From a bacterium (GTDB lineage: Bacteria; Patescibacteriota; WWE3; 2-01-FULL-39-13; JAACPI01): DNA of 64,000 bases. Positions 1-28,248 of this stretch are shown in pieces (position 1 is the stretch's first letter; each line of letters opens with the position of its first letter). Made by a program: the position numbers and the translations under genes. The stretch lies in assembly GCA_009995545.1 (NCBI GenBank), contig JAACPI010000001.1, positions 115,698 through 179,697 on the forward strand, read 5' to 3'. A model generated the notes under the pieces. It was not told the origin of the DNA. It ran no database searches and saw only the letters and a program-made list of their open reading frames with translations.

Positions 1-331
1 TACTTGAGCTTAAAGGCTCGAAACGAAGTATTAACATCAATTAAATACTTCCCTGCGAAACTATAAGTAAATCAAGCACCCTAACGTTAGGAGATATTAT
101 ACACATTAAATGTGTAGTGTAAAGTACTAAAATAACCTATAGTATTAAGGTGCTGCAGTTTAAAAACAGAATTCCTAACCTCTATCTAAACTTGGAGTGA
201 TTCCTCTGGTTACTACTGTGGGAGGAGTTAATTCTGTGTTCATTTACAAAACCCTTTGATATATCTAAAATAGCAACAGTAAAACTAACACCACATTAAC
301 GACCTCGCCCGTCAAAAATACATTACCTATT

Positions 332-1030
332 ATGATATTAGACAACGTAAACAACTTATCTAACGTATTAAATGTTCCAGTATACGCAATGGTTTTGCTG
401 GGCATTGTACCTACAATAGCTACAATAGTAAGTTTTGGTAGACACGTTTTAGGCTTTAAAAGTTTTAGTATTTATGTGCCTATTATTACCAGTATTGTTT
501 TTTTAGACTTAGGTTTAGTTTATGGCTTGGTAGTAGCCTCAATTGTGTTGTTTACTACTCTTATTACCCGAAGGTTACTGATTAAATTTAGAATGCACTA
601 CTTTGTGCGAATTTCTTTTATATACACAATTGTTTGCTTTTTGCTTTTTGGTGTTTTGGTTACTTTGTCGTTTTTTAGCTATGGTGAGCTTTTAAACTTT
701 AAACCTCTTTTTCCGGTAATTTTATTGGTTACCCTAGTAGAAGAGTATTTTAATAGTGTAGTAAAAGATGGGGAAAACAAAGTTATGCTGATGTTTTTAG
801 AAACCTTAGGTATAAGTACTTTAAGCTACTTTATAATTTCTAGTGCATTTTTTACTTCAGTAATTTTAAATAATTTATGGCTTTTGCTTTTGCTTTTTCC
901 TATAAACATAGCTTTAGCAGGGTGGGAAGGCCTGCGTTTTAGTGAGTTATCTAGGTTTAAATCGGTAATTTTAAACGAAATGAACGCAATAGAAGCGGAG
1001 GCAGATACTAAAAAGGAGAAAAAGAAATGA
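332..1030 (+). CDS. Polytopic (about 7 TM) integral membrane protein; likely membrane partner of the downstream ATP-grasp ligase
   Basis: 232-aa ORF with about 7 hydrophobic helices and a Lys/Glu-rich C-terminus. TGA stop overlaps the next ATG (ATGA), indicating translational coupling with the ATP-grasp gene. Resembles the 7TM partner of TIGR02291-type ligase systems (established family association; assignment by inference). Confidence 0.5.
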   Translation: MILDNVNNLSNVLNVPVYAMVLLGIVPTIATIVSFGRHVLGFKSFSIYVPIITSIVFLDLGLVYGLVVASIVLFTTLITRRLLIKFRMHYFVRISFIYTIVCFLLFGVLVTLSFFSYGELLNFKPLFPVILLVTLVEEYFNSVVKDGENKVMLMFLETLGISTLSYFIISSAFFTSVILNNLWLLLLLFPINIALAGWEGLRFSELSRFKSVILNEMNAIEAEADTKKEKKK

Positions 1031-2472
1031 ACCGACTTAGCTTATTTTTAAAAGCTAGTCAAAATGTACTGGGAATAAATGAACGCAATCTTTCTTTTAC
1101 CAAACGTTTTAATAGGGGAAAAAGTAGGTTGTTGGCCGATAATAAGTACAAAACTTATCGTTTACTTAGAAAAAACAAAATCCCAGTTCCCAAATCTTAC
1201 GCAATATTAAAAAAACAATCAGATTTAGCTGATTTTTCATTCGAAAGTATTCCCAGTACCTTTGTTGTTAAGCCAGCATTTGGCTTAGGGGGGACAGGAA
1301 ATTTACTAATTTTTAGTAGAAGTACTAAAACAGGGGATTGGATTGGTATTAATGGTAAAAGATATACCGAAAACGAACTAAAAAGTTTTTGCCAGGCTAT
1401 TCTAGAAAATGCTTTTGCTCTAGATTTTGCAAAAAAAGACGACTTTGTAATTATTCAAGAGAGAATAAAAATAACTAAATCTTTTAGGGCTATAAGCTAT
1501 CCTAAGGGGATACCAGATGTTCGAATAGTAGTGTACAAAAAAATTCCTCTAATGGCCATGTTAAGGCTTCCTACTAAAACAAGCGATGGTAAGGCTAATT
1601 TACATTTAGGGGGTATTGGTGTTGGAATTGACCTTGCAACTGGAATTACTACTTCTGCTGTTCATTACGATGAGCCTATTGAAAAACACCCAGATACTGG
1701 GGTTAATTTAAGTGGTTTTAGTATACCTATGTGGAAAGACATTTTAAAAATTGCCCAAAAGTCAGTCGATGTTTTGGGTTTAGACTTTGGTGCTGTAGAT
1801 GTTGTTTTAGATATTGATCAGGGTCCTATGATTTTAGAGCTTAATGCAAGGCCTGGTTTGTCTATTCAGCTTGCAAATCAGGAGGGCTTAAAGGGCAGAA
1901 TTAATCGCGTTAAGGGTATTAAACCCAGATCGCTACTCCATGCACGTAAAATAGGTACAAGCTTGTTTGGCGGTGAAATTGAGGACACTGTTTTTGACGT
2001 AACAGGGATGCAGGTCGCAGGTTTCATAGCTATGGCAAATTTTTATGGAATTGATCAAAAAGTAGCTAAAAGAATTAAAGTTAAAAATGACACCGGGGCT
2101 CTTTACAGTAGTATTGATAGGGATTTAGCTGATAAATTAGGTTTTGATAAAGCATTAAGTGATTTTGACGAATTAGAGCTTAATAAAACCTACCACGATA
2201 GGGTAGAGGCTTTGCAGCATAAAAAACAAATGGCCAAATTGGTTAAAGATCACCCTGAGATCATTGGTTTAACGGTGGTAAAGTCAGGAAATGGTATCAC
2301 AATTAGACCAAAAGTTAGGATTGGTATAGAGATGGAGGGAAAGAGAATTGAGGCCATTGTTAACATTGCTGATCGAAGTAACATGCTCTATAAAGGTATA
2401 ATTGGAAGAAGAACCTTGCGCAAAAACTTTTTAGTAGATAGCAATAAAATATTTAACAGGTACAAAGACTAA
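1027..2472 (+). CDS. RimK-related ATP-grasp ligase (alpha-L-glutamate ligase-related type) fused to a C-terminal retropepsin-like (DTGA) aspartyl-protease-like domain
   Basis: N-terminus 'VLGINERN...RLLADNKYKTYRLLRKNKIPVPKSYAIL' matches the RimK-like ATP-grasp N-terminal signature. ATP-grasp core motifs include 'ILELNARPG'. C-terminal 'RIKVKNDTGALYSSIDRDLADKLGF ... YKGIIGRRTLRK' has the D-T-G-A retropepsin motif typical of the 'putative ATP-dependent Zn protease' (PF05618-like) family. Confidence 0.6.
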   Translation: MNRLSLFLKASQNVLGINERNLSFTKRFNRGKSRLLADNKYKTYRLLRKNKIPVPKSYAILKKQSDLADFSFESIPSTFVVKPAFGLGGTGNLLIFSRSTKTGDWIGINGKRYTENELKSFCQAILENAFALDFAKKDDFVIIQERIKITKSFRAISYPKGIPDVRIVVYKKIPLMAMLRLPTKTSDGKANLHLGGIGVGIDLATGITTSAVHYDEPIEKHPDTGVNLSGFSIPMWKDILKIAQKSVDVLGLDFGAVDVVLDIDQGPMILELNARPGLSIQLANQEGLKGRINRVKGIKPRSLLHARKIGTSLFGGEIEDTVFDVTGMQVAGFIAMANFYGIDQKVAKRIKVKNDTGALYSSIDRDLADKLGFDKALSDFDELELNKTYHDRVEALQHKKQMAKLVKDHPEIIGLTVVKSGNGITIRPKVRIGIEMEGKRIEAIVNIADRSNMLYKGIIGRRTLRKNFLVDSNKIFNRYKD

Positions 2473-2588
2473 GATTACTAATTTCAAATTACTAACTGCA
2501 CTAATTGTTCTAAGTGAAGAACAGAAGAACTATTACTGAAAGAAAACAAAAAAGTGTAAATTAATAAGTATTAAGTTTCGACTATTCT

Positions 2589-3461
2589 ATGAAAATTGCA
2601 TATATAACATCTAAACCAAATATGAAAGAAACCTACAGGGTTAGAGAAGAAATGGAGGCTTTAGGTCATAGCGTAATTTTAATTAATCTGAGCGACAGCA
2701 GCTTTATATTTAATGAAAGTGGGGTTAAAAATACCCTAATTTCTAAAGAAACCTTTGACATTATCATCGCAAGAGATGTGTTGTCCTACATTAAGCATTA
2801 TGCAACTTTAGTAGAAACTTACCGTAAAAGAGGTATAAAAGTTTACGATAATGGTTTAACAGAGCTAAAATATGTAATAAACAAGCCTGTAGATTTAATG
2901 AAGTTAGCAAGTGTGGGGGTAGCTATACCTAAAACTTTTTTTACAAAAGATTTTGGAGACTATCGAAAAGCTGCAAAGTCGTTTGGTTTTCCTTTAATCT
3001 TTAAAAAAACCAATATGGGAAAAGGAGTAGGTATTTATTTAATGAAAAGCGAAGAAGAATTTGCCGCCTTTTTAGATCAAGAAATTAAAGATGAGGTAAA
3101 GGCAACTAGTTATTTAATGCAGGAGTTTATTGAGTACGAGCACGATTTGCGAGTTTTAGTAATAGGTGATCAAATGTTCGCAATGAAGAGAATTCCAAAA
3201 GAAGGGGATTTTAGAGCAAATTACTCTTTAGGCGGAACGGTAAAATTATTTGAAATAACACCTGAAATAAAAGAATTAGCAACAAAAGCTATAAATGCAG
3301 TCGGAATGAACTATGGAGGTGTAGATGTTTTAATAGACAAAAGTGGAAAACTCTATATTTTAGAGGTAAACCATAATGCAGGGTTTGCAGGAATGGAAGA
3401 AGCCACAGGCAAAAATATAGGAAAAATGTATGTAGAACATGCATTAAAAAGTGCCAAATAA
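2589..3461 (+). CDS. RimK-family ATP-grasp ligase (paralog 2)
   Basis: 290 aa. 'EFIEYEHDLRVLVIGDQMFAMKRIPKEGDFRANYSLGGTV...GGVDVLIDKSGKLYILEVNHNAGF' are classic RimK / glutamate-ligase ATP-grasp motifs. Confidence 0.75.
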   Translation: MKIAYITSKPNMKETYRVREEMEALGHSVILINLSDSSFIFNESGVKNTLISKETFDIIIARDVLSYIKHYATLVETYRKRGIKVYDNGLTELKYVINKPVDLMKLASVGVAIPKTFFTKDFGDYRKAAKSFGFPLIFKKTNMGKGVGIYLMKSEEEFAAFLDQEIKDEVKATSYLMQEFIEYEHDLRVLVIGDQMFAMKRIPKEGDFRANYSLGGTVKLFEITPEIKELATKAINAVGMNYGGVDVLIDKSGKLYILEVNHNAGFAGMEEATGKNIGKMYVEHALKSAK

Positions 3462-3510
3462 ATTTGTAATATTACTTTTCATTTTGCATTTTAAATTTTA
3501 AACTACTCTT

Positions 3511-4443
3511 ATGAACATATTAATCGCTGGTTTAGTTAAAGGTTCACAAGCCACAAGGTTGATTGAAGAAGGAACAAAATTAGGACATGCCGTTCATGGC
3601 ATTTTCGGGTCTCATTTAGTTAGCAGATTTAATGGTAATTTTGTAGATATTGAATTTAGAGATCACCCTTTAAAGCCCCAAGACTACGATATTGTATATT
3701 TAAAGCTAACTGGAAAAACTAAGTTCGACTGGTACCTGGTAGCAAGGCATTTACACGATAAGTTTGGTTTACAGGTTGTGCCCGATAAATACGTATTAGA
3801 CGATTACACCGTTTTTTATTCCCCTCAGGCAGATTATTTAAAACAGGCCGAAGATGCTTCTTTAAAATACCCAAAATCAGTTATCTTTAAGAATGCTGCA
3901 AGTTTAAAAAACGCCATTAAAGGGTTTGAATTTCCTTTAATCTTAAAGCTGTCTGGAGGAAGTTTTGACAGAAAGGGTAGGGGAGTAAAGTTAGTTAGTA
4001 GTTTGGGGGAGCTAAAAGCTTTAATTAAGGAACACAGAGAAGACTCCGAAAGATTTACCTTACGTGAGTTTATACCTAATAATGGAGATTTAAGGGTTTT
4101 TACGGTGGGTTATAAAGCAATAGGTGCTATGAAGCGAACACCTAAAGAAGGGGATTTTAGAAGCAACATAAGCCAAGGAGGAGACGGGGAAGAGTTTGAT
4201 TTGTCTACCAGACCCGATATTGTTCAAATGGCAGAAAAACTTAGCAAAATTACTCGAACGGAGGTTGCAGGTGTGGATATTATGTTACATAAAGAAACGG
4301 GTGAGCCCTATATTTTAGAAATTAACCCCGGTCCGCAATTCGAAGGGTTAGAGAAATACACAAAGGTAAATGCTGCAAAGGAAATAATTAGATATTTTGA
4401 GAGTAAGGTTAAGGGGTTAGGTTACCTTCCTGAGAGTTCATAA
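3511..4443 (+). CDS. RimK-family ATP-grasp ligase (paralog 3)
   Basis: 310 aa. 'LREFIPNNGDLRVFTVGYKAIGAMKRTPKEGDFRSNISQGGDGE...AGVDIMLHKETGEPYILEINPGPQFEG'. Confidence 0.75.
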   Translation: MNILIAGLVKGSQATRLIEEGTKLGHAVHGIFGSHLVSRFNGNFVDIEFRDHPLKPQDYDIVYLKLTGKTKFDWYLVARHLHDKFGLQVVPDKYVLDDYTVFYSPQADYLKQAEDASLKYPKSVIFKNAASLKNAIKGFEFPLILKLSGGSFDRKGRGVKLVSSLGELKALIKEHREDSERFTLREFIPNNGDLRVFTVGYKAIGAMKRTPKEGDFRSNISQGGDGEEFDLSTRPDIVQMAEKLSKITRTEVAGVDIMLHKETGEPYILEINPGPQFEGLEKYTKVNAAKEIIRYFESKVKGLGYLPESS

Positions 4444-4773
4444 TCTTACTTTATAGTATTTTTGAATTTACCTAAATTTTCCTCTTTTAAGGGTGATAAC
4501 TCGCTTTTTGACAACATAGATAAAATTACCCCAAACTTTAATACTTGAATTTCCAATATGGATAAAAAAATTGTACAGAATTTTTTATTTATACCTTGAA
4601 ATCACCCGAGATCTATCCGTATTAAAATGGCTCTCATTAGGGGTTTATAGGGTTTATTGAACAAAAAATTTAAGAAGTAAATAAAATTGTTTGGCAATAA
4701 TCTAGGTGGTTTAAGTAAAGGGTTTTTAGATGGTTTAAAACTTATAATCGGTTAATTTGATATAATTTAAAAT

Positions 4774-6217
4774 ATGACAGAAAAAAGAGAAAAAATTGTT
4801 TGCATAGTTGATAATTTCGCGGAAGTACCAATGCCTGAGGTTGGGGATGTTAAGCTACAAGGACGATTAGATGCTCTTTTACAAGAACAGGATTACGCCC
4901 AAATTTATGAGTTGGGGTCTACTAATCCCAGTGCCTACCCCTATGCAATAGTTTTAGCTTTTAATTTAGGCTACTTGGAATCTATATCTGGTCACCTAAA
5001 GTTCTTTTATCACAATGATATAGAACCTTCCTCGCTCACTGTTAAAAACGGAGGTGATTTAGCTGTGGTTGCTGCTGCTTATACCTCTTTTTATACTAGG
5101 TGGGGTAATAGAGACAACCATTGGTGCAATATGGGGGTTTTAACAGGTCCACGTATCCCCATTAATGAAGATTACTTTCCTAGAATTAATTTTGGTTCTG
5201 AAAAACTTGATCAAGAAATATTAGAACTACTGCAAAAGGTTAATGGGGTTACCTACCAACAAGCCCTGGATCCGGAATACCTTACTTTTTATAAACAACT
5301 GTCTTTTCTAAGTAGAAAACGTGCAATTTACCACGGGGTTTATCCCCAAGGGAAAACACGAGAGGAAGGAGTGGACTACGTATTAACCCATGCAGTTTGT
5401 GAGGCTTTAATTGCCCAGAGTCAACTCGAAGACCCCACTTTACAGGGTTATCGAAAAGATTTTGTTACAGGTCGTGCAAGAAGAGCCTACACCCTTGCCC
5501 AAAAAACTATGGAGAGTATCTATGGTTTTAATATACCTGATTTAGAGAATGGGGGTTTAGATCGTTTAGGAGAATCCCGTAGAATAAAGTATTTGGCTTA
5601 TTATCAGGAGGTAATTCAGCGACTTTTAGCTTATGACCCTGAAGATAGCCGGGTAATATCTAGGGATATGAGCAGCTGGTACCTTGATAAATCTACAAAA
5701 TGGAGGGATTTCTCAAGGGCAGTCAGGCCGTTAGCTACCTCTCTAGGTCCTTTTTGGTTTTATGCTGAGGATAATGTGCCAAAAGAGGTTAAGGATAAAG
5801 GGGGGGGGGTATCGTAAACGCAGAGAAGCCTATAACGATTGGTTTATGAACCGAATGAGGAAAGAGAAATCAGAATCTAGGAGAGAAGAGCTGCTTGCAA
5901 ATGCAAAAGGAGATATTGCAGTTTGGAATTCCCGATTTGCAGGCAAAGTTCCCTTCTTTATTCGAGGGGACAACGGTGAGCTAGAGGTTACTTTTGAAAT
6001 AGACTTACGCGAAGCGGAACTGTGCCTTGGTTCACCGCAGGAGCTGGGGAGAATTCAGGCCACGGTTAGAACATCCTTTGCTATTGATTCTTCTAGAAAA
6101 TCCAAGCTTGCCAAAATTTTACACCCTGACGCTCTAGGAATACCCGCCGAACTTGAGGAATCCTACGCTTTAGAACGAAAACTAAAGGAGGAGATTTTTA
6201 AAATCCGTAATATTTGA
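4774..6217 (+). pseudogene. GC-rich hypothetical gene split by a +1 frameshift at a G10 homopolymer (frame 1 ORF 4774-5817, frame 2 ORF 5762-6217); phase-variable or degraded
   Basis: The two overlapping ORFs change frame exactly at G10 (5800-5809). Local GC is about 42-46% against a window background of about 34%. No recognisable domain. Confidence 0.5.
5800..5809. repeat. G10 homopolymeric tract (slipped-strand candidate)
   Basis: Ten consecutive G at the frameshift point of the 4774-6217 gene. Confidence 0.9.
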
Positions 6218-6384
6218 TATTAGGTGCAAAGACCTCTATTTAGGGCCTTTATCGGAATATTTCCGCCAACAATTTTCATTAGGGTTTATATTTTGTAATT
6301 GCTTGGGTACAACTTGCTTTAAGCTGATTTAGCACCTAACAAGGTTGCAAATCACCCTAAGAGTAGTATATAATCACCCCTGTT

Positions 6385-6699
6385 ATGAAAGACAAGATAC
6401 ACCCAAAAGTTAATAAAAAAGCTAAAGTTACTTGTAACTGTGGCCACACCTTTACAACTACCAGTGTTTTAGAAGAAATTAGGGTAGAAGTTTGTAGTCA
6501 ATGTCACCCCTTTTATACAGGTGTTGAGAAGTTTATAGACACAGAGGGTAGAGTAGACAGCTTTAAGAGAAAACAAGATGTCGCAAAAGAAAGACAAAAA
6601 GTTATTTTGCAAAAATTAAAAGTAAAAAAGACTAAAGAAAAAGAACAAAAACAAGGCCCCTTGTCCTTAAAAGATTTACTTAAACAGGCGGGTAAATAA
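6385..6699 (+). CDS. rpmE: 50S ribosomal protein L31 with Lys-rich C-terminal extension
   Basis: 'MKDKIHPKV...[13 protein letters not shown]...[13 protein letters not shown]' is the L31 zinc-ribbon signature. Confidence 0.85.
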
Positions 6700-27588: not shown

Positions 27589-28248
27589 ATGGATAGTATA
27601 GAGCAACAAGCAATAAAAGCTGCTATAGCAGGAGACTGGGAAACAGCTATAAAATTAAATAACCAAGTTTTAGACTCCGGTACTAAATCAGTAGCCTTAT
27701 TTAATCGTCTGGGTAAAGCATATTCTGAAGTTTCTAATTGGGCTAAGGCTGTAAGTAGTTTTGAAAGTGCCTTAGAGCTAGACCCTGTAAATTCAGTTGC
27801 CGAAAGGGGAATTACTTCTGCAAAATTAAATAAAAGAGCTGGCGTTTCTACACTAAATCCAAGTGACACCGTGGTTAAAGATATGAGTACGGTTAAAATA
27901 ATAGAAACAAGTAGCTTTAAGTTAGAACTAAATAAAGATTATGAGCTAGTTATAGGTAATAACGATACTTTTTACTTCTTATTGGATAGTTTAAGCGGAA
28001 AAAAATTAAGAAGAATTAGTAAAAAGAATTTAGGGCTAAAGTCTGGAGCCCGACCCCAAAAGTTGCAAGCTAAAGTTATCGAAATCAATGATGATATAGC
28101 TAGAATTAAAATCTCTTCTGATTTGCCTTCGTTTACCGCAGAAAAAGCCCAGACAGACCCTTTTTTAGAGGTAAAATCTAAAGTTCTTGAGGAAGAGAAG
28201 CTCCATTTTACGAAGCTTTATGAGGCTGAACAAGAGATTGAAGAATAA
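27589..28248 (+). CDS. TPR-repeat protein
   Basis: N-terminal TPR-like helices ('AIKLNNQVLD…LGKAYSEVSNWAKAVSSFESALELDP'). Confidence 0.5.
   Translation: MDSIEQQAIKAAIAGDWETAIKLNNQVLDSGTKSVALFNRLGKAYSEVSNWAKAVSSFESALELDPVNSVAERGITSAKLNKRAGVSTLNPSDTVVKDMSTVKIIETSSFKLELNKDYELVIGNNDTFYFLLDSLSGKKLRRISKKNLGLKSGARPQKLQAKVIEINDDIARIKISSDLPSFTAEKAQTDPFLEVKSKVLEEEKLHFTKLYEAEQEIEE

What the first reader, a model, noticed from the sequence alone, without database searches (positions are those of the whole stretch)
1027..2472. ATP-grasp ligase fused to a retropepsin-like DTGA domain
The C-terminal about 190 aa of this ligase contain 'VKNDTGALYSSIDRDLADKLGF' and a terminal 'YKGIIGRRTLRK…VDSNK'. This is the Asp-Thr-Gly-Ala active-site pattern and C-terminal strand of the retropepsin-like family long mis-annotated as 'ATP-dependent Zn protease'. 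The ligase and its usual trans-acting protease partner are therefore fused in one polypeptide. That implies coupled ligation and proteolytic processing, such as tag addition with self-cleavage or maturation.
Basis: partly seen in the sequence, partly recalled or inferred. Interest (0 to 1): 0.55.

Follow-up and report, generated by a model that had tools for sequence, protein, structure and literature searches.

The report
Glutamate-type ligase fused to retropepsin protease
One gene encodes an amino-acid ligase joined to a small HIV-protease-like peptidase, next to a seven-helix membrane protein; this is a compact, fused version, widespread in tiny-genome (Patescibacteria/CPR) bacteria, of the RloABC stress-tolerance system described in Pseudomonas in 2025.

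Summary
ORF 1027..2472 (+, 481 aa) has an RloC-type ATP-grasp ligase at residues ~12-296. It has a retropepsin-like RimB/RloA-type (PF05618) domain at residues ~329-477, with an intact DTGA site. The two are joined by a conserved acidic linker. Sequence profiles, an AlphaFold model and a fold search all agree on the protease domain. The fusion is not an artefact. The best 80 species-level genomes, nearly all labelled as Patescibacteria, carry it full-length. In 79 of those 80 a 7TM (PF14402, RloB-like) gene sits directly upstream. RimK-family ligases often follow, and two follow here.

It is a compact rearranged relative of the Pseudomonas rloABC operon and is analogous to the published RimBK hybrid. 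It differs in the ligase family, in domain order, in lacking a signal peptide and in lacking the transglutaminase domain on the membrane partner.

The most likely mechanism, by inference, is a cytoplasmic, membrane-associated ligase that builds acidic (poly-alpha-glutamate-like) chains. The fused dimeric protease trims or regulates them.

Self-cleavage is untested. The conserved Glu-rich linker keeps that idea alive, but only weakly. I rate this a new variant of a known kind, of moderate interest.

The parts
332..1030 (+). 7TM membrane protein (232 aa). It corresponds to the C-terminal 7TM half of RloB and has no transglutaminase domain. Its stop overlaps the start of the fusion gene (ATGA).
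   Evidence: PF14402 7TM_transglut E=1.5e-15, profile positions 55-247 of 248. NCBIfam RloB positions 319-506 of 508, E=1.5e-6. 25% identity to Legionella RloB residues 318-429, E=2e-7. A homologue lies directly upstream of the fusion gene in 79 of 80 related loci. The overlap is read.
1027..2472 (+). Fusion gene: RloC-type ATP-grasp ligase, acidic linker, retropepsin-like peptidase (481 aa). It has no signal peptide and no TM segment.
   Evidence: Maximum Kyte-Doolittle 19-residue hydropathy is 1.3. The sequence is identical to NCBI NCT55313.1, annotated 'ATP-grasp domain-containing protein [bacterium]'.
1027..1914 (+). ATP-grasp ligase domain (residues 1-296), alpha-L-glutamate-ligase-like / RloC type
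   Evidence: PF14397 E=8e-68 for residues 20-296. TIGR02291 E=2.9e-79 at 266 bits, below the 314-bit equivalog cut-off. 41% identity to Legionella RloC over residues 7-304, E=4e-69. K82, D258, E271 and N273 are conserved in 82 of 82 sequences. The nearest solved folds are RimK with RpsF, ArgX/LysX and cyanophycin synthetase.
1915..2010 (+). Inter-domain segment (residues 297-328). It comprises a helix ending in the invariant LFGG (nt 1963-1974), then the acidic linker at residues 317-325 (nt 1975-2001). The family consensus is E-[IV]-E-E-E-[IVL]-E-E; this protein reads EIEDTVFDV.
   Evidence: L313, F314, G315, G316 and E319 are invariant in 47 homologues. Residues 317-325 are the only internal segment with pLDDT below 50 in the full-length model. 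Canonical unfused RloC proteins end at the LFG motif, so the acidic stretch is the true fusion linker.
2011..2457 (+). Retropepsin-like (RimB/RloA, PF05618) peptidase domain, residues 329-477. DTGA is at nt 2089-2100. K353, R427 (nt 2305-2307) and R450 (nt 2374-2376) are putative poly-Glu-binding residues. The G460-R461 'GR' motif is at nt 2404-2409. Residues about 365-406 are predicted to be helical.
   Evidence: Conservation in 82 sequences: D355 80/82, T356 80/82, G357 81/82, R427 77/82, R450 67/82, K353 64/82, G460 81/82. RloA residues K46, D48, R114 and R137 are described in PMC12239564.
2589..3461 (+). RimK-family ATP-grasp ligase, paralogue 1 (290 aa), probably in the same operon
   Evidence: TIGR00768 rimK_fam scores 156.8 bits, above the 143.4 cut-off. 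PF08443 E=2.6e-30. RimK-like genes follow the fusion gene in about half of 80 related loci.
3511..4443 (+). RimK-like ATP-grasp ligase, paralogue 2 (310 aa)
   Evidence: PF08443 E=8.7e-28. TIGR00768 scores 123 bits, below the cut-off.

Best explanation
The locus encodes a compact, rearranged Rlo-type system. Gene 332..1030 makes a seven-helix membrane protein equivalent to the membrane half of RloB. The translationally coupled gene 1027..2472 makes one cytoplasmic polypeptide. In it an RloC-type ATP-grasp amino-acid ligase is followed by an acidic flexible linker and a RimB/RloA-type retropepsin-like aspartic peptidase.

Shown here:
- the domain identities
- intact ATP-grasp and DTG catalytic residues
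- the retropepsin fold
- conservation of the fusion and of the 7TM neighbour across Patescibacteria

Inferred from characterised relatives (RimK/RimB, RimBK, RloA):
- The ligase adds glutamate or similar acidic residues to a carboxylate. This gives poly-alpha-glutamate-like chains on a protein, peptide or envelope precursor at the membrane.
- Two fusion proteins dimerise through their protease domains to form the two-Asp active site.
- That site binds the acidic chain through K353, R427 and R450 and cuts it. This limits chain length, and/or the protease domain stimulates the ligase, as RimB does for RimK.
- The two downstream RimK-family ligases probably act on the same product.
For: Domain identities:
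- Searches give the profile hits.
- One search gives profile hits to solved RloA, RloA2 and Lpg0085.
- Searches give the fold (pLDDT 84.7); the top PDB folds are 2pma, 9g58 and 9g59, then Ddi1 and HIV protease.
- One search shows the N-domain is nearest to RimK with RpsF, ArgX/LysX and cyanophycin synthetase.

All three canonical rlo components have homologues here. RloC is 41% identical (E=4e-69). RloA matches by hhalign at 97%. The RloB 7TM half matches at E=2e-7.

Selection acts on both active sites. K82, D258, E271 and N273 are kept in 82/82 sequences. D355 is kept in 80/82, G357 in 81/82 and R427 in 77/82.

The fusion is full-length in all of the best 80 GTDB species genomes. The 7TM gene is directly upstream in 79 of 80. 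The two genes overlap by ATGA.

The protein has no signal peptide or TM segment, and the protease domain has no Cys pair. This fits a cytosolic protease such as RimB.

Precedents:
- RloA cleaves poly-Glu through K46, R114 and R137. Mutations in rloB or rloC suppress the rloA triple mutant (PMC12239564).

Further fusions of the same ligase-protease unit to MATCAP, YdjC or a second ATP-grasp domain, and of protease domains to the 7TM protein, show that the parts work together.
Against: - No substrate or product is known, even for the Pseudomonas system.
- The ligase scores below NCBI's equivalog cut-off for TIGR02291 (266 vs 314 bits), so the amino acid it adds is inferred, not shown.
- PF05618 is borderline by Pfam's own threshold (24 bits in the full protein, 27.6 bits on the isolated domain, cut-off 27).
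- The segment between DTGA and the flap hairpin is predicted helical here, whereas it looks beta-rich by composition in the RloA sequences. Substrate access may therefore differ.
- K353 and R450 are less conserved (64/82 and 67/82).
- In Pseudomonas the protease is secreted and the RloB transglutaminase domain is periplasmic. The compartment logic of the fused system therefore differs and may reflect a different role.
- The D. psychrophila RimBK hybrid showed no glutamylation of Pseudomonas RpsF.
- No candidate protein with an acidic tail was found in the window.
- Dimerisation and contact with the 7TM protein were not modelled.
Confidence: 0.6

Rival explanations
1. Retrovirus-style autoprocessing. 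The protease domain dimerises and cuts the conserved acidic linker (residues ~317-325). This releases a free RloA/RimB-like protease and a ligase with a new Glu-rich C-terminus. Alternatively, the linker sits in the cationic cleft as a pseudo-substrate that keeps the protease off until substrate arrives.
For: The linker lies immediately N-terminal of the protease domain. It is strongly conserved (LFGG-E-[IV]-E-E-E-[IVL]-E-E-[ILV]-S-G) although it is the only low-confidence internal segment of the model. Canonical RloC proteins stop just where it begins. Relatives cleave Glu-rich sequences, both internal and C-terminal.
Against: RimB needs 5-6 contiguous Glu and RloA needs 8. Interruptions abolish or slow cleavage. 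The family linker has at most about 3 contiguous Glu, and this protein has EIEDTVFD. Conservation of a stable fusion in hundreds of genomes does not require cleavage. No experiment bears on it.
Confidence: 0.15
2. An envelope-glycan or peptidoglycan modification system. The ATPgrasp_ST ligase amidates a sugar acid or a muropeptide/lipid-linked precursor rather than building poly-Glu. The 7TM protein translocates the product. The protease domain removes or edits the peptide stem.
For: Pfam describes PF14397 as 'sugar-transfer associated'. In relatives the ligase-protease unit is fused to YdjC, a carbohydrate deacetylase family (P0132). In a Moranbacteria genome the cluster also holds YdjC and a class A PBP. 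Loss of RloA in Pseudomonas gives cell-shape defects and sensitivity to cell-wall antibiotics.
Against: The nearest solved folds of the ligase domain are ligases acting on protein or peptide C-termini: RimK, ArgX/LysX and cyanophycin synthetase. The protease keeps the basic residues used by RloA for poly-Glu. YdjC and the PBP are absent from this window's cluster. MATCAP, a carboxypeptidase family acting on acidic tails, is an equally frequent fusion partner.
Confidence: 0.2
3. The C-terminal domain is a catalytically dead retropepsin fold kept only as a dimerisation or scaffolding module for the ligase.
For: The Pfam score is borderline. The flap-preceding region is altered and helical. A few family members have lost the motif: L051 has NTG, L053 has NPS, and L084 has DTGE.
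Against: D-T-G is retained in 80 of 82 species-level sequences, together with A358, R427, G460 and R/K461. Such conservation of catalytic and substrate-binding residues is not expected for a mere scaffold. The analogous RimBK hybrid is proteolytically active.
Confidence: 0.05

Closest known systems
RloABC operon of Pseudomonas aeruginosa and other Gammaproteobacteria (Lormand et al., mBio 2025, PMC12239564). A canonical example was read here on Legionella adelaidensis plasmid NZ_LR134414.1 (L087).
   Same: It has the same three protein families. The RloC-type ATP-grasp is 41% identical. The RloA-type retropepsin-like peptidase has DTGA and the Lys/Arg/Arg positions. The PF14402 7TM protein is shared. 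The genes are clustered and probably co-transcribed.
   Different: - Here the protease is fused to the C-terminus of the ligase. In the canonical operon it is a separate gene upstream, in the order rloA-rloB-rloC.
- It has no signal peptide and no disulfide Cys pair, so it is cytoplasmic rather than secreted.
- The membrane protein lacks the inactive transglutaminase domain (232 aa versus 508 aa).
- Extra RimK-family ligases are present in the cluster.
- The host is a Patescibacteria-type organism. The paper reported 96% of RloB hits in Proteobacteria.
RimBK hybrid protein (Desulfotalea psychrophila DP2392; Little et al., JBC 2025, PMC11957791)
   Same: It is a single polypeptide combining a PF05618 retropepsin-like peptidase with a glutamate-ligase-type ATP-grasp. 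The hybrid's protease domain is active on polyglutamylated RpsF. Both are cytoplasmic.
   Different: In RimBK the protease is N-terminal (residues 1-163) and the ligase is RimK proper. Here the protease is C-terminal and the ligase is the RloC/ATPgrasp_ST family (PF14397 at 229 bits versus PF08443 at 36 bits). RimBK has no 7TM partner. It is found mainly in Flavobacteriales and Rhodobacterales.
RimK / RimB (/RimA) ribosomal protein S6 glutamylation module of Pseudomonas
   Same: It is a ligase plus a retropepsin-like endopeptidase acting antagonistically on poly-alpha-L-glutamate. RimB also stimulates RimK. The window has RimK-family genes next to the fusion.
   Different: The proteins are separate. 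The known target is RpsF. There is no membrane component. No evidence here links the window's system to S6.
Lpg0085 / DUF785 (PDB 2pma) and the retropepsin fold generally (Ddi1 RVP domain, HIV-1 protease, Rickettsia APRc)
   Same: 2pma is the best structural match of the modelled C-terminal domain (Foldseek E=2.6e-6, probability 1.0). The DTG(A) loop, the G-R motif before the C-terminal helix and the terminal strand are shared.
   Different: Sequence identity is low (11-20%). The segment between the DTGA strand and the flap hairpin (residues ~365-406) is predicted to be three helices here. Homodimer formation was not tested.

Membership tests
PF05618 RimB/RloA-like retropepsin peptidases (formerly 'putative ATP-dependent Zn protease', DUF785) | Significant profile match over the whole domain | tested here: met
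   PF05618 matches profile positions 15-134 of 138 with E=4e-5 at 24 bits in the full protein, which is below the 27-bit cut-off. On the isolated domain it scores 27.6 bits, E=3e-6. RloA3 scores E=1.9e-9. A family profile hits 9g58, 9g59 and 2pma at 5e-9 to 4e-6. hhalign gives 97%. Most homologues carry a precomputed PF05618 hit.
PF05618 RimB/RloA-like retropepsin peptidases | Catalytic Asp-Thr/Ser-Gly-Ala motif | tested here: met
   D355-T-G-A358 is present. D, G and A are invariant in 47 homologues. In 82 species-level sequences D is kept in 80 and G in 81.
PF05618 RimB/RloA-like retropepsin peptidases | Retropepsin half-barrel fold | tested here: met
   The AF2 model has pLDDT 84.7 and pTM 0.74. 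The top Foldseek PDB hits are 2pma, RloA, RloA2, Ddi1, HIV-1 PR and APRc, all at probability 1.0. This is a prediction, not an experimental structure.
PF05618 RimB/RloA-like retropepsin peptidases | Homodimer that forms the two-Asp active site | not testable with these tools
   Only monomer prediction was available and no coordinates were returned.
PF05618 RimB/RloA-like retropepsin peptidases | Basic residues that bind poly-Glu (RloA K46, R114, R137) | tested here: inconclusive
   K353 lies at D-2. R427 sits in the 'RP' motif and R450 in the 'DRS' motif, 23 residues apart as R114 and R137 are. They align with the same motifs in 9g58, 9g59 and Legionella RloA. They are conserved in 64/82, 77/82 and 67/82 sequences. 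The equivalence to the RloA(Pa) numbering is inferred from motifs, not from its sequence.
RloA sensu stricto (secreted Rlo peptidases) | N-terminal signal peptide and a conserved disulfide Cys pair | tested here: not met
   The domain is internal and C-terminal to a cytoplasmic ATP-grasp. The protein has no hydrophobic segment. The only Cys is C122, in the ligase domain. NCBIfam scores are far below the equivalog cut-offs (37 vs 210 bits).
RloC / TIGR02291 alpha-L-glutamate ligase-like ATP-grasp (PF14397 ATPgrasp_ST) | Profile match and ATP-grasp catalytic residues | tested here: met
   PF14397 scores 229 bits against a 31.4-bit cut-off. TIGR02291 scores 266 bits, E=3e-79, which is below its 314-bit equivalog cut-off. 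Identity to Legionella RloC is 41%. K82, D258, E271 and N273 are invariant. It is a member of the Pfam family but not an NCBI equivalog.
RloB (7TM + inactive transglutaminase) for the upstream gene | N-terminal inactive transglutaminase domain plus a C-terminal 7TM domain | tested here: not met
   Only the 7TM half is present. PF14402 covers positions 55-247 of 248 at 57.8 bits. NF052267 covers positions 319-506 of 508 at 27 bits against a 900-bit cut-off. Some CPR relatives carry a signal peptide and a PKD domain instead.
RimBK hybrid | N-terminal RimB domain followed by a bona fide RimK ligase | tested here: not met
   The domain order is reversed. The ligase scores 51 bits on TIGR00768 rimK_fam against a 143-bit cut-off.

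The most novel reading that the evidence does not exclude
The strictly conserved Glu-rich flexible linker between ligase and protease (LFGG-EIEEEIEE-SG in the family) may be a built-in substrate or pseudo-substrate of the retropepsin domain. If so, this bacterial enzyme would autoprocess or auto-inhibit like a retroviral polyprotein. Cleavage would leave a Glu-ending C-terminus on the ligase that could prime poly-glutamylation.

More broadly, the CPR module would be the minimal Rlo system, with ligase and protease acting on one cytoplasmic, membrane-bound acidic polymer. That would point to the long-sought Rlo substrate.
Probability: 0.15. Interest if true: 0.65.

Novelty: new variant of a known kind. 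Interest (0 to 1): 0.42.

Why it matters
The Rlo system (2025) affects osmotic stress tolerance, biofilm formation, cell shape and antibiotic sensitivity in Pseudomonas. Its substrate and the roles of RloB and RloC are still unknown. The fused form found here adds several constraints:

- It is widespread in bacteria with roughly 1-Mb genomes and no periplasm.
- The ligase and protease are kept together to the point of covalent fusion.
- The transglutaminase domain and secretion of the protease are dispensable for the core function.
- The 7TM protein is the invariant partner.
- Recurrent fusion partners (MATCAP carboxypeptidase, YdjC, further RimK-type ligases) point to where the substrate might be sought.

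The result also extends bacterial retropepsin-like peptidases to Patescibacteria. The public record names this protein only as an 'ATP-grasp domain-containing protein', so the protease domain is not reflected in the product name.

Tried and rejected
- Artefactual fusion (frameshift or misassembly) is rejected. The identical protein occurs on at least 23 independent contigs. The full-length architecture occurs in 80 of the best 80 species genomes.
- Chance DTGA motif is rejected by the profile, profile-profile and fold evidence.
- LysX/ArgX-type carrier-protein ligase for the fusion or the downstream RimK genes: scores are far below the equivalog cut-offs. No LysW-like small ORF was seen in 1-6400.
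- A scan of all 64 kb for a protein substrate with an acidic tail or an internal Glu run found only EEEE runs in two unrelated ORFs and one '...EQEIEE' tail at 27589-28248. Nothing was convincing.
- A second, stand-alone retropepsin gene in the window: none found.
- The downstream ORFs 4774-5817 and 5762-6217 as part of the module: they have no Pfam or NCBIfam hits. Homologues occur only in the same organism's contigs. I did not count them as parts.
- The promoter/terminator scan was not above shuffled expectation, so the operon limits rest on spacing only.
- Iyer et al. 2009 (PMC3268129) first catalogued ATP-grasp and peptidase contexts. It could not be read, so whether it already lists this exact fusion is unknown.
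- phmmer of the ligase domain against PDB sequences found nothing. Only the fold search linked it to RimK and ArgX.
Full report
OBSERVATION

The window has an ORF at 1027..2472 on the + strand, encoding 481 aa. The quoted peptides are present. KVKNDTGALYSSIDRDLADKLG is encoded at 2077-2142, so DTGA is residues 355-358, nt 2089-2100. YKGIIGRRTLRKNFLVDSNK lies near the C-terminus.

Pfam assigns residues 20-296 to PF14397 ATPgrasp_ST (E=8e-68). It assigns residues 348-477 to PF05618 (E=4e-5, 24 bits, just under the 27-bit cut-off). On the isolated C-terminal 185 residues PF05618 reaches 27.6 bits, E=3e-6.

NCBIfam gives TIGR02291 'alpha-L-glutamate ligase-like protein' (E=2.9e-79; 266 bits, below the 314-bit equivalog cut-off). 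It also gives 'retropepsin-like aspartic peptidase RloA3' for residues 347-478 (E=1.9e-9).

IS THE PROTEASE DOMAIN REAL?

- A 30-sequence profile of the C-terminal region (A2) finds three solved structures: P. fluorescens RloA (9g58, 5e-9), P. aeruginosa RloA2 (9g59, 4e-8) and Legionella Lpg0085 (2pma, 4e-6). Ddi1 follows as a weak tail.
- AlphaFold2 models the region with mean pLDDT 84.7 and pTM 0.74.
- Foldseek against the PDB returns 2pma, 9g58 and 9g59, then Ddi1 retroviral-protease-like domains, HIV-1 protease and Rickettsia APRc. All have probability 1.0.
- hhalign against a canonical RloA-like protein from a Legionella adelaidensis plasmid gives 97% probability, E=1.3e-10.

In 47 homologues D355, G357, A358, R427-P428, R450 and G460 are invariant. 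In 82 sequences (81 GTDB species genomes plus the window) the counts are D355 80/82, T356 80/82, G357 81/82, R427 77/82, R450 67/82 and K353 64/82. The ATP-grasp residues K82, D258, E271 and N273 are kept in 82/82.

K353 (two residues before the catalytic Asp), R427 and R450 occupy the motif positions that the RloA paper identifies as poly-glutamate contacts. In RloA these are K46, R114 and R137, with R114A and R137A the most damaging mutations. The 23-residue spacing of the two arginines is the same. This equivalence is inferred from motif alignment. It was not checked against the RloA(Pa) sequence itself.

One difference stands out. Residues ~365-406, between the DTGA strand and the flap hairpin, are confidently predicted as three helices. 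The corresponding RloA stretch looks beta-rich by composition and aligns poorly.

IS THE FUSION REAL AND CONSERVED?

The identical protein is recorded on at least 23 contigs from JGI, ENA, Logan and NCBI. It is NCBI NCT55313.1, annotated only as 'ATP-grasp domain-containing protein [bacterium]'.

The homology search returned more than 100 full-length relatives of 455-502 aa. Most carry both PF14397 and PF05618. Those with names are labelled Moranbacteria or Parcubacteria.

The best 80 all cover query residues ~7-474. Nearly all come from Patescibacteria MAGs (Moran-, Pacei-, Dojka-, Kerfeld-, Nomura-, Shapiro- and Levybacteria). Some auto-labelled 'uncultured' MAGs carry other names.

A profile search of 1.84 billion cluster representatives found 3739 clusters at E<=1e-3 and 564 at E<=1e-10.

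CONTEXT

The upstream ORF 332..1030 (232 aa) is a PF14402 '7TM_transglut' protein. It matches only the C-terminal 7TM half of RloB. Its stop overlaps the ATG of the fusion gene as ATGA, which suggests translational coupling.

A homologue of this 7TM gene lies directly upstream of the fusion gene in 79 of 80 related loci. The exception is a contig that starts inside the fusion gene.

Downstream are two RimK-family ATP-grasp genes at 2589..3461 and 3511..4443. RimK-like genes follow the fusion in roughly half of the related loci. In a complete Moranbacteria genome the cluster also contains YdjC, MATCAP, another ATP-grasp and a class A PBP.

Related proteins show further fusions:
- ligase-protease-MATCAP
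- ligase-protease-YdjC
- ligase-protease-ATP-grasp
- protease-ATP-grasp
- two protease domains fused to the 7TM protein

Some CPR 7TM proteins carry a signal peptide and a PKD domain in place of the transglutaminase domain.

RELATION TO KNOWN SYSTEMS

Lormand et al. 2025 (PMC12239564) described the rloABC operon of P. aeruginosa. RloA is a secreted retropepsin-like peptidase that cleaves runs of 8 or more Glu. RloB is a 7TM protein with a periplasmic inactive transglutaminase domain. RloC is a cytoplasmic ATP-grasp. Loss of rloB or rloC suppresses the defects of the triple rloA mutant. The substrate is unknown.

A canonical rloA-rloB-rloC cluster was read on Legionella adelaidensis plasmid NZ_LR134414.1. 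The window's ligase domain is 41% identical to its RloC over residues 7-304 (E=4e-69). The window's 7TM protein matches its RloB residues 318-429. The window's C-terminal domain matches its RloA.

Canonical RloC proteins end at the motif that is LFGG in the fusion. Aeromonas RloC ends ...KDHFGIFDE and Legionella RloC ends ...KEMFAR. The acidic stretch that follows is therefore the genuine fusion linker.

Little et al. 2025 (PMC11957791) showed three things. RimB is a retropepsin-like endopeptidase needing 5-6 contiguous Glu. [quoted passage not shown] A natural RimB-RimK hybrid (RimBK, protease N-terminal) is proteolytically active.

Neither paper mentions a RloC-RloA fusion or Patescibacteria.

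The window's protein differs from RimBK in domain order, in ligase family and in its 7TM partner. It differs from Rlo in four ways:
- it is fused
- it lacks a signal peptide and the Cys pair
- its membrane partner lacks the transglutaminase domain
- its gene order is rearranged

MECHANISM

The nearest solved folds of the ligase domain are RimK bound to RpsF, ArgX/LysX and cyanophycin synthetase. All of these add amino acids to peptide or protein carboxylates.

The most likely reading has four steps:
1. The cytoplasmic ligase, docked at the 7TM protein, builds an acidic (poly-alpha-Glu-like) chain.
2. Two fusion proteins pair through their protease domains to form the active site.
3. The protease trims the chain and/or activates the ligase.
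4. The RimK paralogues contribute further ligation steps.

Only the domain identities, the conservation and the gene linkage are shown. The chemistry, the substrate, the dimer and the membrane docking are inferred.

Rival explanations are autoprocessing at the linker, an envelope-glycan or peptidoglycan role, and a dead protease scaffold.

The linker consensus is LFGG-E-[IV]-E-E-E-[IVL]-E-E-[ILV]-S-G. It is the only internal low-confidence stretch in the full-length model (residues 317-325). That combination is unusual for so conserved a segment and keeps the self-cleavage or pseudo-substrate idea alive. However, the linker lacks the contiguous Glu run needed by characterised relatives, and here it reads EIEDTVFD.

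VERDICT

Self-cleavage and tagging are unproven.

The finding is a new variant of a recently described kind. The sequences are already in public databases, but the two 2025 papers on this family read here do not describe the fusion, and full-text searches of the held library turned up no other description. It is of moderate interest, mainly because it constrains models of the Rlo system.

Noticed in passing
window 1963-2001 (residues 313-325 of the fusion protein): The inter-domain linker is far more conserved than expected for a flexible segment. LFGG is invariant, followed by E-[IV]-E-E-E-[IVL]-E-E. It is also the only internal stretch with pLDDT below 50. Canonical unfused RloC proteins end exactly at the LFG motif. 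It may be a pseudo-substrate, a cleavage site or a docking element.
   Followed up: partly
window 2589-3461 and 3511-4443: Two tandem RimK-family ATP-grasp ligase genes lie directly downstream of the fusion gene, giving three ATP-grasp ligases in a row. Only the first passes NCBI's rimK_fam cut-off. Their substrates are unknown, and no S6 or LysW-like target was seen nearby.
   Followed up: partly
window 4774-5817 and 5762-6217: Two overlapping ORFs (347 and 151 aa) have no Pfam or NCBIfam hit. Homologues were found only on contigs of the same organism. On one contig (L004) the first is split into two ORFs, so the overlap may reflect frameshifts or mis-called starts.
   Followed up: no
P0133, P0176, P0132, P0196, P0166; L084 5986-8388: Relatives carry larger fusions: ligase-protease-MATCAP (a metallocarboxypeptidase family), ligase-protease-YdjC, ligase-protease-second ATP-grasp, and two retropepsin domains fused to the N-terminus of the 7TM protein. 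This looks like a modular 'ligate and trim' toolkit. The MATCAP link recalls the tubulin tail modification cycle.
   Followed up: partly
L022 1380-2945, L037, L040, L068, L084 (7TM genes of ~520-560 aa): In some Patescibacteria the 7TM partner has a signal peptide, a PKD domain and an unassigned ~150-residue region in place of the proteobacterial inactive transglutaminase domain.
   Followed up: partly
L022 4320-4802 and L033 7119-7664: An additional stand-alone retropepsin-like gene (about 160-180 aa, with intact DTGA) lies immediately downstream of the fusion gene in two genomes.
   Followed up: no
L051 and L053; L084: A few family members have degenerate protease motifs (NTG, NPS, DTGE) while keeping the ATP-grasp residues. 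These may be cases of protease inactivation.
   Followed up: no
window 1-64000: The whole 64-kb window has no tRNA gene (ARAGORN) and no Rfam family at gathering threshold. GC is about 0.29-0.42. GC skew turns negative between about 38 and 46 kb.
   Followed up: no
L087 2005-2463 (Legionella adelaidensis plasmid 5): A complete canonical rloA-rloB-rloC cluster sits on a 54-kb Legionella plasmid. Its RloA-like protein has no obvious signal peptide (it starts MANNEKIIYGFIEK) and is annotated 'RimK/LysX family protein'.
   Followed up: no
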